A DNA stretch of 26,959 bases, from NCBI GenBank assembly GCA_039809285.1, contig JBDHUU010000001.1:1-26959 (forward strand), written 5' to 3'. Shown here one piece after another: positions 23,186 through 26,223 of this stretch; position 1 is the first letter of the stretch, and the number at the start of each line of letters is the position of its first letter. This DNA is from Candidatus Levyibacteriota bacterium. GTDB lineage: Bacteria; Patescibacteriota; Microgenomatia; Levybacterales; UBA12049. The notes below the pieces were generated by a model. The model had not been told where the DNA came from and ran no database searches. It worked only from the letters and a program-made list of their open reading frames with translations. The translations under genes and the position numbers were made by a program.

Positions 23186-24264
23186 GACTTGATTTTTTCT
23201 AGATAAAAGTCAAACAACCATTCAGTATCATATGGCCCTGGAGTTGCCTCTGGATGAAATTGAACTGACATAAACGGTAACTTTGTATGGATGATACCTT
23301 CATTGGTCCCGTCGTTTGCATTGGTAAACCATTTTTTAAAGTTACTTGGAATATCGTTTACAGCAAAACCATGATTTTGGGTCGTGATATAACATCTCGG
23401 AGAGCCCTCCATAATACAAGGCTGATTTTGACTACGGTGTCCATATCTCAGTTTCGTCGTTTCCCCACCAGCAGCAAGAGTTAGAAGCTGGTGCCCAAGA
23501 CAAATACCCATTGTCGGAATTTTTAAGTCCATAGACTTTTTAATTGTTGTTATAGTTTTGGTAACAAACGTTGGATCACCAGGACCATTTGAAATGAAGA
23601 GTCCGTCAAAGTGTTTTTTGGAACCTGTTATTTCTTCAATTTTACTTTCTCCCTTTTTAGTAAATGGATCAAAATCCCACGGCGCTACAATGACTGAGAC
23701 ATTCCTTTTCCTTAGTGAATTAATAATATTTCGTTTGGCTCCGCAATCAAGAAGAAGAATAGTCTTGGCCTTTTTATTAGTTGAGGGAAGGTAACTGATA
23801 TTTTTTATTGAGACTTGCTTCACAAGATTTTCTTTATTTGGATCATAATATCCTATCGGCTTGTTGATGGAGATTTTGCCTAGAAGTGACCCTTTTTCAC
23901 GAATGTGCTGTGTCAGTCCCCTGGTATCTTTTATCTGAATGAGGGGTAACTTTTCATTCTTAAACCATTTTGCTAATGAGTTTTGACTTTGGAAATGAGA
24001 TGGCGTATCGATGTAGTTACTCACAATAAGTCCTGAGACCATAAGTCTATCTGCTTCCCAGAGATTTTTATTAGGGACTCCGTAATTTCCGACAAGCGGA
24101 TATGTCAGAACTAGGATTTGTCCTTTAAAAGAAGGGTCAGTTAATCCTTCAGGATATCCCATCATACCTGTTGAAAAAACAACTTCTCCGCTTGTAGAAA
24201 CTGGTGCACCGAAACTTTCTGCTTCAAGGGTAATTCCATCTTTTAATTGAAGTGTAGCGTTCAT
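23182..24264 (-). CDS. carA: Carbamoyl-phosphate synthase small (glutaminase) subunit
   Basis: GEVVFSTGMMGYPE, SNGPGDP, GICLGHQ (catalytic Cys), QNHGFAV and QFHPE. ATGA overlap with carB. Confidence 0.98.
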   Translation of the reverse strand: MNATLQLKDGITLEAESFGAPVSTSGEVVFSTGMMGYPEGLTDPSFKGQILVLTYPLVGNYGVPNKNLWEADRLMVSGLIVSNYIDTPSHFQSQNSLAKWFKNEKLPLIQIKDTRGLTQHIREKGSLLGKISINKPIGYYDPNKENLVKQVSIKNISYLPSTNKKAKTILLLDCGAKRNIINSLRKRNVSVIVAPWDFDPFTKKGESKIEEITGSKKHFDGLFISNGPGDPTFVTKTITTIKKSMDLKIPTMGICLGHQLLTLAAGGETTKLRYGHRSQNQPCIMEGSPRCYITTQNHGFAVNDIPSNFKKWFTNANDGTNEGIIHTKLPFMSVQFHPEATPGPYDTEWLFDFYLEKIKS

Positions 24265-24269
24265 AGTCT

Positions 24270-24317
24270 AAAAAAAGTCATCCAACTCCTGGAATAAATC
24301 CGCAGAATTTGAATGAC
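24270..24317 (-). terminator. Intercistronic terminator/attenuator between pyrB and carA
   Basis: Minus strand GTCATTCAA...TTGGATGAC (9-bp stem with one G-U, further inner pairing), then T7, 5 nt, and the carA ATG. Confidence 0.7.
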
Positions 24318-24320
24318 GTG

Positions 24321-25295
24321 TTATTTCAATTTACCCAGTGTCAAGCTAATAAGTGCCATCCTAACATACATGCCATTTTTTATTTGTGACCTGAAGTAGA
24401 CTGCTCTTTTATCACCATCTACACTTGTTTCGATTTCACCGACTCGAGGAAGCGGATGCATAAGGATCATTTTCTGAGAGGCTTTTTCTCTCAATAAGTT
24501 TGGTGTAACAATGAATGAGTGTTTAACCTTTTCGTAGTCACTGAGATTTTTGAAGCGTTCTTTTTGGACCCGAGTCCAATACCAGACATCAGCATTTTTA
24601 GGTATATCTTGACTATTGTGAATCTCAATTAACTTTAATCCTCTTTTTTCAAATAGCGCTTTTTCTTCTTTAGGAAGTTTGAGTATTTGTGGGGAAAGAA
24701 GATAGATAGTATTGTTCTCAAAAAGTGAAAGTCCTCGTAAAAGTGAATGGACTGTCCTGCCATTAAGAAGATCTCCAGCAAAAAGAATTGTCAGATTATC
24801 AAGCCTACCAAATTTTTCATAGATAGTATACATATCCAAAAGCGCTTGGGTTGGGTGCTCGCCTACTCCATCTCCAGCATTTATAATAGGTACAAAAAAA
24901 GCAGCCTCTGCTGCTTTTTTAGCTGCTCCTTTTTCTGGATGGCGAAGAATAATAATATCTGAATAGCTTTCCAAAGTACGAATAGTATCCTCAAGTGTCT
25001 CCCCTTTAGCAACTGAGGAGGTACTGGTTGGGTTTTGGAATTCTAGAGTCTGCCCACCTAAGCGTTTAATAGCGCTTGCGAATGAGCCAAACGTTCGACT
25101 CGATGGCTCGTAAAAAATAAGGGCAGCTATGCTACCCTTCAGAATATCTAGGACTTTCCCTCTTTCAGTAAAGGTTTGGAGGTGTTTAGCATGCTTAAAA
25201 AGATGATATAAGGAGGGAACGTCAAATTGATCAAGGGATAAAATATCCTGCGACTTAAATTTTTTTTGTAGTGTAGTCTTTTTTTGTGTGGGCAT
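24321..25295 (-). CDS. pyrB: Aspartate carbamoyltransferase catalytic subunit
   Basis: FYEPSSRT (STRT variant), KGETLEDT, INAGDG..EHPTQALLD, TRVQKERF and MHPLPR. Confidence 0.97.
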   Translation of the reverse strand: MPTQKKTTLQKKFKSQDILSLDQFDVPSLYHLFKHAKHLQTFTERGKVLDILKGSIAALIFYEPSSRTFGSFASAIKRLGGQTLEFQNPTSTSSVAKGETLEDTIRTLESYSDIIILRHPEKGAAKKAAEAAFFVPIINAGDGVGEHPTQALLDMYTIYEKFGRLDNLTILFAGDLLNGRTVHSLLRGLSLFENNTIYLLSPQILKLPKEEKALFEKRGLKLIEIHNSQDIPKNADVWYWTRVQKERFKNLSDYEKVKHSFIVTPNLLREKASQKMILMHPLPRVGEIETSVDGDKRAVYFRSQIKNGMYVRMALISLTLGKLK

Positions 25296-25338
25296 AAAAA
25301 AACCAGGACCCCTCTGCCGTCAGGCAGGTCGCTCCTGG
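25296..25338 (-). terminator. Leader terminator/attenuator immediately before the pyrB ATG
   Basis: Minus strand CCAGGA-gcgac-CTGCC-tgac-GGCAG-agggg-TCCTGG-TTTTTTT-ATG. Confidence 0.75.
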
Positions 25339-25344
25339 AGTATT

Positions 25345-25373
25345 AGTTTAAGCACTTTAGGTCTTCGTGTCAA
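25345..25373 (-). promoter_or_regulatory. Sigma70 promoter of the pyr operon
   Basis: TTGACA (25373-25368), 17 nt, TAAACT (25350-25345). Confidence 0.85.
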
Positions 25374-25380
25374 GAAGAAT

Positions 25381-26223
25381 TTAATTGTTCTCACTTGATT
25401 TAACCAGGTTTGAAAGGAGCATTGCGACATTAATAGGTCCGACTCCTCCAGGAACTGGTGTATAAAAGGCAGCTTTAGTGGAAATATCTTCCTCAGCATA
25501 GTCTCCGTGCAATTTTCCATCCATTCCTCTGCCCATACCAACACCTATTAAGATTACACCGTCCCTAATCATAGTACTAGTAACGACACACTCTTTTCCA
25601 ACAGCGCTGATAAGAATATCTGCATTTCTCAAAATCTCACCTCTATTGTCTGTCTTACTATCAATAATTGTAATGGGGAGATCTTTCTTTTGGAAGAAAG
25701 TAATAATAGGCATACCAGCAGTTTGGCCCTTGCCCATAATAACTACCCTTTTAGACTTTAGCCATTCTTCTAAAGTCATATCCTGATTTCCTCCTTGCTT
25801 GTACACTTCTTTCAAGATTCTCCACACGGCTAAGGCAACTGGTGCGTCAAAGGGAGTATTATCACAGAAGCCATCAACGTCCTTATTGATATTTGTTGCG
25901 TTAGTAACTTTATTTTTATCGATCTGAGGCGGAAGCGGACGTTGGATGATAATACCATGGATGATTGGATCCTCATTAAGTTCATCAATGAGATCTAAAA
26001 GTTCTCCTTCAGAAAAGTTATTTTTAAACCGGTGAATTGTGATTGCGCCACCAATTTCTTGAATCTTTAGCTCTTTTTGCCTGACATATGCTTTAGATGA
26101 CTCATCGTCTCCTATGAGGATAACTGCTAAGTGGGGTGTAATACCTTCCTCTCTCAGCTCTGCGACCCGAGTTTTAAGACTATCTAATATCCCCTGCGCA
26201 ATACTTTTTCCATCAATAACCAT
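25381..26223 (-). CDS. folD: Bifunctional methylenetetrahydrofolate dehydrogenase/cyclohydrolase
   Basis: VIDGKSIA, YVRQK, HGIIIQRPLP, KDVDGF and TPVPGGVGPINVAMLLSNL. Confidence 0.96.
   Translation of the reverse strand: MVIDGKSIAQGILDSLKTRVAELREEGITPHLAVILIGDDESSKAYVRQKELKIQEIGGAITIHRFKNNFSEGELLDLIDELNEDPIIHGIIIQRPLPPQIDKNKVTNATNINKDVDGFCDNTPFDAPVALAVWRILKEVYKQGGNQDMTLEEWLKSKRVVIMGKGQTAGMPIITFFQKKDLPITIIDSKTDNRGEILRNADILISAVGKECVVTSTMIRDGVILIGVGMGRGMDGKLHGDYAEEDISTKAAFYTPVPGGVGPINVAMLLSNLVKSSENN

What the first reader, a model, noticed from the sequence alone, without database searches (positions are those of the whole stretch)
25296..25373. Ultra-compact pyr leader: a terminator whose 5' arm starts at the transcription start site, suggesting CTP-sensing start-site switching coupled to attenuation
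Seen: after TTGACA-17-TAAACT the sequence is AATACT-CCAGGA. Positions 6-8 after the -10 are U, C, C, and the first purines (A, G) follow. CCAGGA is itself the 5' arm of a hairpin closed by UCCUGG-U7, and AUG follows the U tract directly, so all pyrB mRNA must pass the terminator. Known: E. coli/Salmonella pyrC uses CTP-dependent start-site choice to form or avoid an inhibitory hairpin, and B. subtilis pyrG uses 5'-end changes to control a terminator. Inference: with high CTP, initiation at C gives the full stem and termination; with low CTP, initiation at A or G shortens the stem and allows read-through. This would be a protein-free 43-nt sensor, possibly also UTP-sensitive through the U tract. 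The hairpin could double as the folD terminator.
Basis: partly seen in the sequence, partly recalled or inferred. Interest (0 to 1): 0.75.

Follow-up and report, generated by a model that had tools for sequence, protein, structure and literature searches.

The report
Start-site hairpin terminator before pyrB
In front of the pyrimidine-synthesis operon of this tiny uncultured bacterium (Candidatus Levybacteria) sits a conserved promoter whose transcripts begin at the foot of a stop-signal hairpin, so which letter transcription starts with probably decides whether the genes are read; this would be a very small, protein-free nucleotide sensor, but it has not been tested.

Summary
On the minus strand, TTGACA-17-TAAACT is followed by 6 nt, a hairpin starting CCAGGA, U7 and the pyrB ATG. 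The same layout occurs once per genome in about 90 related genomes across more than 50 genera, with covarying stems. The consensus after the -10 is WAAAUY-YCAGAR. Leaderless genes of this genome place the transcription start 7-9 nt after the -10, which falls on C7, C8 and A9 at the hairpin foot. Starting at position 9 instead of 7 weakens the hairpin (median -8.6 to -3.7 kcal/mol) and separates it from the U tract. E. coli pyrC has the same geometry (TATCCT-6-CCGG).

No PyrR gene, Rfam match, leader peptide or antiterminator structure was found.

My best reading (about 40%) is a pyrC-like switch between a pyrimidine-NTP start and a purine-NTP start, coupled here to an intrinsic terminator and to access to the AUG.

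Four results complicate this. One genus has a separate second terminator hairpin. Some lineages lack the U tract. About 15 genomes carry the leader before non-pyrimidine genes. C8-A9-G10 also looks like a fixed optimal start site.

No RNA data exist. Earlier findings of this scan in other CPR genomes were leader-peptide attenuators, which are a different design.

The parts
25368..25373 (-). -35 hexamer TTGACA
   Evidence: TTGAC is kept in all 89 related leaders, but the search pattern required it.
25345..25350 (-). -10 hexamer TAAACT, 17 nt after the -35
   Evidence: The family consensus is TAAAGT/TAAACT, often preceded by an extended -10 TYTGn.
25339..25344 (-). Discriminator aatact (family consensus WAAAUY)
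   Evidence: Conserved in the leaders but not in other promoters of this genome.
25335..25338 (-). Start-site window: C7 (25338), C8 (25337), A9 (25336), G10 (25335) after the -10. This is also the foot of the hairpin's 5' arm.
   Evidence: Leaderless genes place the ATG's A at positions 7-9 after the -10 (21, 14 and 9 cases against a background of 1-3). YCAG is kept in 89 leaders.
25303..25338 (-). Hairpin: outer stem CCAGGA/UCCUGG, inner stem CUGCC/GGCAG (25327-25323 with 25318-25314), loop UGAC
   Evidence: Folds at -21 kcal/mol. The outer stem is conserved and covaries across 81 leaders, while the interior varies freely from 3 to about 80 nt.
25296..25302 (-). U7 tract directly after the stem (the U tract of an intrinsic terminator)
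   Evidence: Of 67 single-hairpin leaders, 61 have U6 or U7.
24321..25295 (-). pyrB (aspartate carbamoyltransferase). Its ATG (25295-25293) abuts the U tract. It is the first gene of pyrB-carA-carB-pyrC.
   Evidence: Pfam carbamoyltransferase domains OTCace_N and OTCace. The ATG directly follows the U run in 64 of 67 single-hairpin leaders.
25381..26223 (-). folD, the upstream co-directional gene. Its stop codon lies 7 nt before the -35, and the hairpin is the only terminator-like structure after it.
   Evidence: Pfam folD domains THF_DHG_CYH and THF_DHG_CYH_C. folD lies upstream in 25 of the related loci.

Best explanation
This is the conserved leader of the pyrimidine operon (pyrB-carA-carB-pyrC) of Candidatus Levybacteria, a lineage of the candidate phyla radiation (CPR).

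A near-consensus sigma-70-type promoter is placed so that RNA polymerase's start window, 7-9 nt after the -10, spans two pyrimidines (Y7, C8) followed by purines (A9, G10). Those same nucleotides form the foot of a hairpin that runs into a U6-7 tract and then the pyrB AUG.

**Proposed mechanism (inferred, not shown)**
- When CTP (or UTP in lineages with U7) is plentiful, transcription starts at Y7 or C8. The nascent RNA then completes the basal G-C pairs. The hairpin abuts the U tract, so the transcript terminates, and any read-through RNA has its AUG region held next to a stable stem.
- When pyrimidine NTPs are scarce relative to ATP and GTP, transcription starts at A9 or G10. One to three basal pairs are missing, the stem is about 5 kcal/mol weaker and sits 2-3 nt from the U tract. 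Polymerase reads through and pyrB is translated.

This is the logic of E. coli and Salmonella pyrC/pyrD, with the output moved from masking a Shine-Dalgarno sequence to an intrinsic terminator. It occurs in an organism that rarely uses Shine-Dalgarno sequences.

**What is shown:** the anatomy, its conservation and covariation, its register with the start window, and the energetic effect of the start position.

**What is inferred:** which 5' ends are actually made, their dependence on NTP levels, and termination itself.
For: **Register with the start window**
- In G000, promoter-like sites TTGA-N18-20-TANNNT followed by the ATG of an ORF of at least 80 aa peak at spacings of 6, 7 and 8 nt (21, 14 and 9 cases against a background of 1-3). 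Starts therefore fall at positions 7-9, which are C7, C8 and A9 in this leader.

**Conservation**
- The strict pattern hits 76 sites in 75 of 245 genomes of the order, against about 10 for the control.
- An unbiased look upstream of the remaining pyrB genes of the family adds variants with UCAG and one with CCGG.
- Across 89 distinct leaders, positions 5-8 are pyrimidines and positions 9-12 are purines.
- The discriminator WAAAUY is specific to this element.

**The first nucleotides are in the RNA and paired**
- C7 pairs with G in 51 leaders and U7 with A in 4, and the combinations never cross.
- The covariance-model alignment of 81 leaders is 87.8% paired. Pair types are CG68/UA5 at position 7, AU51/GC7 at position 11 and GC28/AU26 at position 12. 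None of 500 shuffles reaches the observed covariation score.
- CUGG is kept even where the upstream gene is divergent, in genera g30 and g6.

**Effect of start position on the hairpin**
- Median hairpin energy is -8.6 kcal/mol for a start at position 7, -3.7 at position 9 and -2.7 at position 10.
- Unpaired nucleotides between the stem and the U run rise from 0.4 to 2.5 to 3.3.

**Parallel with E. coli pyrC**
- The E. coli pyrC leader, read here, is TATCCT-ttgtgt-CCGG...CCGGAG-ATG, with C7 C8 G9 G10. Its hairpin goes from -8.1 to -3.0 kcal/mol.
- The published mechanism is summarised in PMC6524683.

**Variants without a U tract**
- These have the AUG in the loop or 1-2 nt after the stem (L009, L058, L101, L099, L073, L071). 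That is the pyrC-type translational form.

**Alternative regulators looked for and not found**
- PyrR scores at most 44 bits against a cut-off of 138, and the best hit is a hypoxanthine phosphoribosyltransferase (HGPRTase).
- There is no Rfam match, no leader ORF and no competing structure.

**The pathway is real**
- pyrD, pyrF and pyrG are present in near-complete relatives.
Against: - No transcript 5' ends or 3' ends are available.
- C8-A9-G10 matches the general optimal start signature of pyrimidine at -1, purine at +1 and G at +2. This signature is recalled from E. coli work and was not tested here. A9 could therefore be one fixed start site.
- In genus g30, and in L053, L026, L027, L082, L060 and L092, a second independent terminator lies between the CCAG hairpin and the AUG. 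Start-site choice cannot disable it, and no antiterminator pairing was found.
- About 15 genomes carry an intact leader before genes unrelated to pyrimidines. These are a small unknown protein followed by a SIMPL/DUF541 protein, and in two genomes the leader lies just after a leaderless pyrB.
- In the window itself the hairpin is still -15 kcal/mol for an A9 start. The effect there would depend on the 2-nt gap to the U tract rather than on loss of the hairpin.
- The covariation counts include related genomes and an alignment fitted to the model.
Confidence: 0.4

Rival explanations
1. Hard-wired promoter nested in a terminator. Transcription always starts at A9, inside the 5' arm. The operon's own transcripts lack the basal pairs and read through. 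Transcripts arriving from the upstream gene (folD) carry the full arm, plus the A-rich stretch that can pair with the U tract, and are terminated. This would be a space-saving insulator with no nucleotide sensing.
For: - C8-A9-G10 is invariant and resembles an optimal start site. A9 lies within the start window used by leaderless genes, with 9 cases at a spacing of 8 nt.
- Most loci have a co-directional upstream gene ending 0-50 nt before the -35, often folD.
- Pairing often extends into positions 5-6 and the A-rich discriminator, which only upstream transcripts would contain.
- The model works for any downstream gene, which fits the non-pyrimidine contexts.
- A 2026 bioRxiv preprint on coupling of promoters and terminators exists. 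Only the start of its abstract could be seen.
Against: - In genera g30 and g6 the upstream gene is divergent (ORFs of 140-335 aa starting 29-175 nt before the -35). The CUGG partner of C7 and C8 is still kept, and g30 still keeps a terminator plus U tract plus AUG.
- No enrichment of -10-like hexamers was found at a fixed offset before other terminator-like hairpins of G000.
- The element occurs once per genome and is conserved in sequence, unlike a generic design.
- It does not explain the leaders without a U tract that have the AUG in the loop.
Confidence: 0.2
2. Constitutive expression-setting leader. A 5'-terminal hairpin protects the mRNA from 5'-end-dependent decay, the U tract serves as an unstructured ribosome landing site in an organism without Shine-Dalgarno sequences, and the hairpin-U tract acts as a fixed partial terminator that scales down a strong promoter.
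For: - Shine-Dalgarno motifs are rare in this genome. GGAG or GAGG occurs before about 7% of starts, against 3% in the control window. About 30% of starts look leaderless.
- About 15 other genes of G000 have a hairpin plus U run 0-8 nt before the ATG, for example carA at 24264, C37:6846 and C39:2267.
- A hairpin at the very 5' end is what 5' stabilisers need (general knowledge from E. coli ompA and B. subtilis aprE, not tested here).
- Every architecture, including the two-hairpin leaders, keeps hairpin-U6-7-AUG.
Against: - It does not explain the invariant YCAGAR sequence, the conserved discriminator or the fixed 6-nt register. Any stem would serve.
- A consensus promoter feeding directly into a canonical terminator is wasteful unless it is regulated.
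- Leaders with the AUG inside the loop would block translation.
Confidence: 0.15
3. Control by a trans-acting factor. An unidentified RNA-binding protein, or a DNA-binding repressor, recognises the conserved AAAUY-YCAGAR block at the start site or hairpin foot. It would either stabilise or open the terminator, or make polymerase resistant to terminators, as in processive antitermination.
For: - An 18-nt block from the -10 to position 12 is conserved beyond what pairing needs.
- YCCARA is kept even in leaders without any hairpin (L076, L103, L116).
- In g30 and in the tandem-terminator leaders, the CCAG hairpin lies upstream of separate terminators, as processive antitermination signals do. The operon also has a further hairpin-U7 before carA.
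Against: - No PyrR gene and no candidate regulator gene is linked to the locus.
- The distance between the hairpin arms varies from 3 to about 80 nt, which argues against a dimeric DNA operator.
- These genomes are about 1 Mb and encode few regulators.
- The non-pyrimidine contexts argue against a pyrimidine-specific protein.
Confidence: 0.15
4. UTP sensing at the U tract, or ribosome-coupled attenuation of the E. coli pyrBI type.
For: - A U6-7 tract is kept, and the AUG abuts it in 64 of 67 leaders.
- Sister CPR lineages do use translated leaders. In Roizmanbacteria (L162) the pyrB AUG lies in the loop of a CUCAGA hairpin and the U9 tract is read as Phe-Phe-Phe. L158, L161 and L165 are similar. 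Earlier scan findings e1-828096 and e1-875615 describe this type.
Against: - There is no start codon between the transcription start and the hairpin, so no ribosome can follow the polymerase.
- Slow U addition at low UTP should increase termination, not decrease it. That is the wrong sign. This rests on established kinetic-competition models and is an inference.
Confidence: 0.05

Closest known systems
E. coli / Salmonella pyrC and pyrD leaders (nucleotide-sensitive selection of the transcription start site; Turnbough, Neuhard and co-workers; summarised in PMC6524683)
   Same: - The geometry is the same: a -10, then 6 nt, then C7 C8, then purines. E. coli pyrC read here is TATCCT-ttgtgt-CCGG.
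- The hairpin's 5' arm begins with those Cs.
- A purine start costs about 5 kcal/mol: -8.1 to -3.0 in pyrC, against a median of -8.6 to -3.7 here.
- Both control a pyrimidine-biosynthesis gene, and neither involves a regulatory protein.
   Different: - In pyrC the 3' arm masks the Shine-Dalgarno sequence (CCGGAG) and the control is translational.
- Here there is no Shine-Dalgarno sequence. The 3' arm runs into U6-7 and the AUG, forming a canonical intrinsic terminator.
- The purine is A (ATP) rather than G, and U7 variants exist.
- The host is a CPR bacterium with mostly leaderless mRNAs.
- NTP dependence is unproven here.
Bacillus subtilis pyrG leader (CTP-sensitive reiterative transcription controlling a terminator)
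   Same: The make-up of the transcript's 5' end decides whether a downstream intrinsic terminator forms. It is protein-free, and the signal is a pyrimidine NTP. This comparison rests on my own knowledge of the pyrG literature.
   Different: - pyrG adds extra Gs by slippage, and these pair with the terminator's 5' arm as an antiterminator.
- Here the 5' end is itself the terminator arm, and no homopolymer is required. The window has UCC, not CCC.
- No added-nucleotide antiterminator is possible.
E. coli pyrBI (pyrL) attenuator and the leader-peptide attenuators found by this scan in other CPR and Chloroflexota genomes (e1-828096, e1-875615, e1-936280)
   Same: A promoter-proximal intrinsic terminator lies directly before the first pyrimidine gene, and a U-rich tract is present.
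   Different: There is no leader ORF, no pause hairpin and no room for a ribosome. The whole leader is 24-45 nt and begins at the hairpin.
PyrR-dependent attenuation (Bacillus and many Gram-positives; Rfam RF00515)
   Same: A terminator in the leader of a pyr operon.
   Different: No PyrR gene, no RF00515 match and no antiterminator/anti-antiterminator pair.

Membership tests
pyrC/pyrD-type start-site-switch leader | Pyrimidines at the preferred start positions (about 7 nt after the -10), immediately followed by purines that offer an alternative start | tested here: met
   The window has t6 C7 C8 A9 G10. In 89 leaders, positions 5-8 are Y and positions 9-12 are R. The start window is calibrated at 7-9 nt. 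E. coli pyrC shows C7 C8 G9 G10.
pyrC/pyrD-type start-site-switch leader | The hairpin's 5' arm begins with those pyrimidines, so purine-start transcripts lose the basal pairs | tested here: met
   The C7-G and U7-A pairs covary. Median energy goes from -8.6 to -3.7 kcal/mol. In the window it goes from -20.9 to -15.1, with a 2-nt gap to the U tract.
pyrC/pyrD-type start-site-switch leader | The hairpin's 3' arm sequesters the Shine-Dalgarno sequence (translational output) | tested here: not met
   No Shine-Dalgarno sequence is present, and they are rare genome-wide. The 3' arm abuts U6-7 and the AUG. Only the variants without a U tract place the AUG in or next to the stem.
pyrC/pyrD-type start-site-switch leader | The start site shifts with the CTP/purine-NTP ratio | not testable with these tools
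   No RNA run holds the locus. This needs in vitro transcription or 5'-end mapping.
Intrinsic (Rho-independent) terminator / attenuator | A G+C-rich stem directly followed by a U run of at least 5-6, lying between promoter and ORF | tested here: met
   Of 67 single-hairpin leaders, 61 have U6 or U7.
Intrinsic (Rho-independent) terminator / attenuator | A competing antiterminator structure or a leader peptide that gates the terminator | tested here: not met
   No alternative fold was found and no start codon lies upstream of the hairpin.
PyrR regulon | A PyrR protein is encoded in the genome | tested here: not met
   NF003549 scores at best 14.8 bits in G000 and 44 bits in five near-complete relatives, against a cut-off of 138. 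The 44-bit ORF is an HGPRTase (TIGR01203, 153 bits). G000 is only 89% complete.
PyrR regulon | A PyrR-binding RNA (Rfam RF00515) is present in the leader | tested here: not met
   No match at E up to 10 in the window or at E up to 5 in 11 related loci.
Reiterative-transcription control (pyrBI promoter, pyrG, codBA, upp) | A run of at least 3 identical bases at the start site | tested here: inconclusive
   C6-C8 (CCC) occurs in about two thirds of the leaders. The window has UCC, and other leaders have UCUC or UUUC. The run is therefore not a conserved requirement.

The most novel reading that the evidence does not exclude
This would be the smallest known transcription attenuator, a protein-free sensor of 24-45 nt. 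RNA polymerase's choice between a pyrimidine-NTP start (C or U at positions 7-8) and a purine-NTP start (A9 or G10) decides whether the first nucleotides of the transcript complete an intrinsic terminator that abuts the start codon. The cell would in effect compare CTP/UTP with ATP at the moment of initiation. The element is conserved across a whole family of CPR bacteria that have almost no classical regulators.
Probability: 0.35. Interest if true: 0.8.

Novelty: new variant of a known kind. Interest (0 to 1): 0.6.

Why it matters
**Regulation in CPR bacteria.** CPR/Patescibacteria have genomes of about 1 Mb, few transcription factors and no cultured models, so how they regulate metabolism is largely unknown. 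This leader is a concrete, testable cis-element, conserved in about 90 species-level genomes.

**Mechanism.** If start-site choice gates the terminator, nucleotide-sensitive start-site selection would extend from translational masking (enterobacterial pyrC/pyrD) to direct transcription attenuation. That would be the most compact attenuator design described, needing only RNA polymerase and NTPs.

**Wider lesson.** It would also show convergent use of the same -10/CC/purine geometry in very distant bacteria. Even if the hard-wired reading is right, a promoter whose start lies inside a terminator arm is an instructive way to pack signals into a compact genome.

Tried and rejected
- **Rfam.** Searched at permissive thresholds on the window and 11 related loci. 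Only chance microRNA and sRNA hits appeared.
- **PyrR.** Not found in G000 or in five near-complete relatives. The best hit is an HGPRTase.
- **Other copies in the genome.** The leader and the inner palindrome each occur only once in G000. The pyrD/pyrF and pyrG upstream regions in relatives lack the motif, and pyrG looks leaderless.
- **RNA evidence.** Both searches for sequencing runs listed only tiny metatranscriptomes that do not hold the locus.
- **Promoter nested in a terminator as a general design.** A loose terminator finder gave 785 hairpin-plus-T5 sites, with no enrichment of TANNNT at any offset. The finder is permissive, so this negative result is weak.
- **Antiterminator pairing in the two-hairpin leaders of g30.** None was found. 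The minimum-free-energy folds show two independent hairpins for both start sites. The second hairpin looks like an inserted small palindromic repeat, which is an inference from similar AUCCUGAGCG...CGAAGGAU units in other leaders.
- **U tract absent only where the upstream gene is divergent.** Not supported.
- **Class-wide pattern search.** Outside the order the hits are near the control rate, and only two look real (L135, L140).
Full report
**What is in the window**

All genes around the finding lie on the minus strand. In order they are a gyrA C-terminal fragment, folD (26223-25381), pyrB (25295-24321), carA, carB and a dihydroorotase-like pyrC.

The 85-nt gap between folD and pyrB reads as follows:

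- TTGACA (25373-25368), then a 17-nt spacer
- TAAACT (25350-25345)
- aatact (25344-25339)
- CCAGGA, the hairpin 5' arm (25338-25333)
- a variable interior containing the small stem CUGCC/GGCAG
- UCCUGG, the 3' arm (25308-25303)
- U7 (25302-25296)
- ATG (25295)

The ATG is the only usable pyrB start. An in-frame TGA lies in the loop, no other start codon follows it, and the carbamoyltransferase domain begins at residue 17. Every pyrB message must therefore pass the hairpin-U7.

On its own the hairpin is only moderately unusual (-21 kcal/mol, z = -2.2). The promoter matches the consensus at 10 of 12 positions.

**The organism**

The assembly is 0.79 Mb, 39% G+C and 89% complete. Named relatives that carry the same leader are Candidatus Levybacteria and Levyibacteriota MAGs (L159, L164).

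Shine-Dalgarno motifs are rare. GGAG or GAGG occurs before about 7% of starts, against 3% in a control window. About 30% of candidate starts have a -10-like hexamer 6-8 nt upstream, which marks them as leaderless mRNAs.

This allows the start window to be calibrated. Promoter-like sites followed by the ATG of an ORF of at least 80 aa peak sharply at spacings of 6, 7 and 8 nt (21, 14 and 9 cases against a background of 1-3). The polymerase of this organism therefore starts 7-9 nt after the -10. In the pyrB leader these positions are C7, C8 and A9, the first three nucleotides of the hairpin arm.

**Conservation**

- pyrB upstream regions from relatives show the same layout with different stems.
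- The strict pattern TTGAC-N18-TANANT-N6-CCAG finds 76 sites in 75 of 245 genomes of the order. By family, that is 71 of 193 in f1, 2 of 49 in f2 and 1 of 2 in f3. The reversed control finds about 10. Sites occur almost always once per genome.
- 87 of 194 family genomes have pyrB.
- Looking upstream of the pyrB genes that the pattern missed gave further variants. Some have UCAG instead of CCAG, one has CCGG, some have an 18-nt spacer, and a minority have lost the element and are leaderless or have short leaders.
- In total there are 89 distinct leaders.
- The consensus is TTGACa, a spacer ending TYTGn, TAAAGT, WAAAUY, then YCAGAR.
- The discriminator is specific to this element, because other promoters of G000 show no such sequence.
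- Outside the order the pattern is at background level, except for two convincing copies (L135, L140).

**The hairpin**

The interior varies from 3 to about 80 nt and is not conserved, whereas the foot is. A covariance model built on ten leaders recovers 81.

On that alignment the six basal pairs are 87.8% paired. Compensatory changes occur at position 7 (CG 68, UA 5), position 11 (AU 51, GC 7) and position 12 (GC 28, AU 26). None of 500 shuffles reaches the observed covariation score, and sliding the 3' partners collapses the pairing. The alignment is fitted to the model and the genomes are related, so these are counts and not probabilities.

Reading the sequences directly gives the same picture:

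| Position 7 | Base following the 3' CUG | Leaders |
|---|---|---|
| C | G | 51 |
| C | none | 7 |
| U | A | 4 |
| U | none | 5 |

The combinations never cross. Position 7 is therefore part of the RNA in at least some transcripts.

The CUGG partner is kept even in genera g30 and g6. There the upstream gene is divergent, so no transcript can enter from upstream.

**Architectures of the 89 leaders**

- 67 are single hairpins running into a U run of 6 (24 leaders) or 7 (37 leaders). In 64 of these the ATG follows the U run with no spacer.
- 13 are of other kinds. Eight of these, from genus g30, have the CCAG hairpin followed 4 nt later by a second independent hairpin plus U6-7 plus ATG. The second hairpin resembles a small palindromic repeat that also appears in other leaders.
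- 9 have no U run. In these the AUG sits in the hairpin loop (L009, L058, L101), lies 1-2 nt after the stem (L099, L073, L071), or follows CCAGA directly (L076).

**Effect of the start position**

| Start position | Median hairpin energy (kcal/mol) | Unpaired nt between stem and U run | Leaders with stem touching the U run |
|---|---|---|---|
| 7 | -8.6 | 0.4 | 67% |
| 9 | -3.7 | 2.5 | 1% |
| 10 | -2.7 | 3.3 | 1% |

These values are for the 67 single-hairpin leaders. The calibrated start window therefore straddles the boundary between a competent terminator and a crippled one. In the window's own leader the hairpin stays strong (-20.9 to -15.1 kcal/mol), but an A9 start leaves two unpaired Gs before the U tract.

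**Comparison with what is known**

I read the E. coli K-12 pyrC leader from NC_000913. It is TATCCT-ttgtgt-CCGG-caaaaacatcccttcag-CCGGAG-catagagatta-ATG.

- The geometry is the same as here: six nucleotides after the -10, then C7 C8, then purines.
- The hairpin begins with the two Cs.
- The energy drops from -8.1 to -3.0 kcal/mol when the start moves to G9.

According to the review PMC6524683, high CTP/GTP makes pyrC and pyrD transcripts start with C, 6-7 nt after the Pribnow box. The two extra Cs then complete a hairpin that hides the ribosome-binding site.

The Levybacteria leader has the same input module, but the output differs. There is no Shine-Dalgarno sequence, and the 3' arm runs into a U tract and the AUG, forming a canonical intrinsic terminator.

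Other known systems were checked and do not fit:

- No PyrR gene was found in G000 or in five near-complete relatives. The best hit is an HGPRTase.
- No Rfam family matches.
- No start codon lies upstream of the hairpin, so there can be no leader peptide.
- No competing fold was found.

Sister lineages do use translated leaders. In the Roizmanbacteria locus L162 the pyrB AUG lies in the loop of a CUCAGA hairpin, again 6 nt after the -10, and the U9 tract is read as Phe-Phe-Phe. This is the type the scan reported before in other CPR genomes (e1-828096, e1-875615).

**How it most likely works**

- A pyrimidine-NTP start (CTP, or UTP in lineages with U7) gives the full hairpin. The transcript terminates at the U tract, or in the variants without a U tract the AUG is occluded.
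- A start at A9 or G10 gives a truncated, detached stem, and the polymerase reads through.
- The comparison of CTP/UTP against ATP matches the allosteric logic known for aspartate carbamoyltransferase. That point is my own knowledge.

None of this is shown. No 5' or 3' ends are available.

**What speaks against it, and the rivals**

1. *A9 may be a fixed start.* C8-A9-G10 also looks like a single optimised start site. If A9 is fixed, the element would be a promoter nested in a terminator: upstream folD transcripts stop and the operon's own transcripts pass (about 20%). Against this, CUGG is conserved where nothing is transcribed from upstream, and I found no general use of such a design in G000 (a weak test).
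2. *The g30 second terminator.* The second terminator in g30, and the tandem terminators before carA in L026, L027 and L082, cannot be disabled by start-site choice. This favours either a constitutive partial terminator with a 5' stabiliser (about 15%) or a trans-acting or processive-antitermination factor that recognises the conserved start-site block (about 15%). YCCARA is kept even in leaders with no hairpin (L076, L103, L116).
3. *Non-pyrimidine contexts.* About 15 genomes carry an intact leader before other genes. These are a small unknown protein, Cys-rich in several genera, followed by a SIMPL/DUF541 protein, often still downstream of folD.
   - In the window the same pair, a 171-aa unknown protein plus SIMPL, lies 9 kb downstream of pyrB. 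Loss of the pyr operon could therefore have left the leader in front of it.
   - In G081 and G236, however, a leaderless pyrB sits immediately upstream of the leader.
   - Behind the leader, G023 has a GTP-cyclohydrolase-II-like gene plus pyrF, and G022 has an unknown gene followed by dcd.
   - The leader is therefore not strictly tied to pyrB.
4. *UTP sensing or ribosome coupling.* UTP sensing at the U tract, or ribosome coupling, is unlikely (about 5%). There is no upstream ORF, and slow U addition should raise termination rather than lower it.

**Other checks**

- pyrD, pyrF and pyrG are missing from G000 but present in near-complete relatives, including the same genus. The pathway is therefore complete in the lineage and the gap is an assembly gap.
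- The upstream regions of those genes lack the motif.

**Verdict**

I classify it as a new variant of a known kind, with interest 0.6.

Noticed in passing
whole genome G000; in the window e.g. 9931, 12285, 12959, 15646, 16183, 26223: Leaderless mRNAs dominate. A -10-like hexamer lies 6-8 nt before the ATG at 171 of 578 candidate starts, against 64 in the control window. Shine-Dalgarno motifs are rare.
   Followed up: yes
window 24265-24323 (minus strand); G000 C37:6846, C39:2267, C14:11763, C2:9604, C46:4716: Other genes have a terminator-like hairpin plus U run 0-8 nt before the ATG, including carA inside the pyr operon. At C2:9604 and C46:4716 a promoter also sits directly before the hairpin.
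   Followed up: partly
L031, L032, L051, L064, L080 (first ORF after the leader); window 14885-16183: In genomes without pyrB at this locus, the leader precedes a 71-99 aa protein with no Pfam match. This protein shares the motif DxCG(L/F)EGV..RP..C.NNPW..PEN and is followed by a SIMPL/DUF541 membrane-anchored protein. The window has a 171-aa unknown protein plus SIMPL 9 kb downstream of pyrB.
   Followed up: partly
L008, L070 (after the leader ATG); L006, L049, L074, L104, L125 and genus g30 leaders: Small palindromic repeats have inserted into pyr leaders. One type is GTCATTGCGAGG...CGAAGCAATC and another is ATCCTGAGCG...CGAAGGAT. In L008 and L070 the insertion displaces the pyrB start, and in g30 it appears to have created the second terminator hairpin.
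   Followed up: no
L012, L083, L084: A 2-3 codon mini-ORF starts at the ATG after the U tract, and its stop codon abuts the real start (ATGACTACATAGATG; ATGAAATAAATG).
   Followed up: no
L162 (Candidatus Roizmanbacteria), L158, L161, L165: Sister lineages have translated pyr leaders. In L162 the pyrB AUG lies in the loop of a CUCAGA hairpin 6 nt after the -10, and the U9 tract encodes Phe-Phe-Phe. In L165 a terminator lies inside the 5' coding part of pyrB.
   Followed up: partly
L075 (G023): The same leader precedes a GTP-cyclohydrolase-II-like gene (49.6 bits to PF00925) followed by pyrF. This is reminiscent of the yeast URC uracil-catabolism gene URC1, a comparison made from memory.
   Followed up: no
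G000 as a whole: pyrD, pyrF and pyrG are not found in this 89%-complete assembly, but are present within about 25 kb of one another in the same-genus genomes G002 and G006. This is probably one missing contig.
   Followed up: yes
record titles of L153-L157, L160, L163, L165, L168: Many public MAG records of this CPR family are titled 'uncultured Gammaproteobacteria bacterium'. This is evidently a wrong default label.
   Followed up: no
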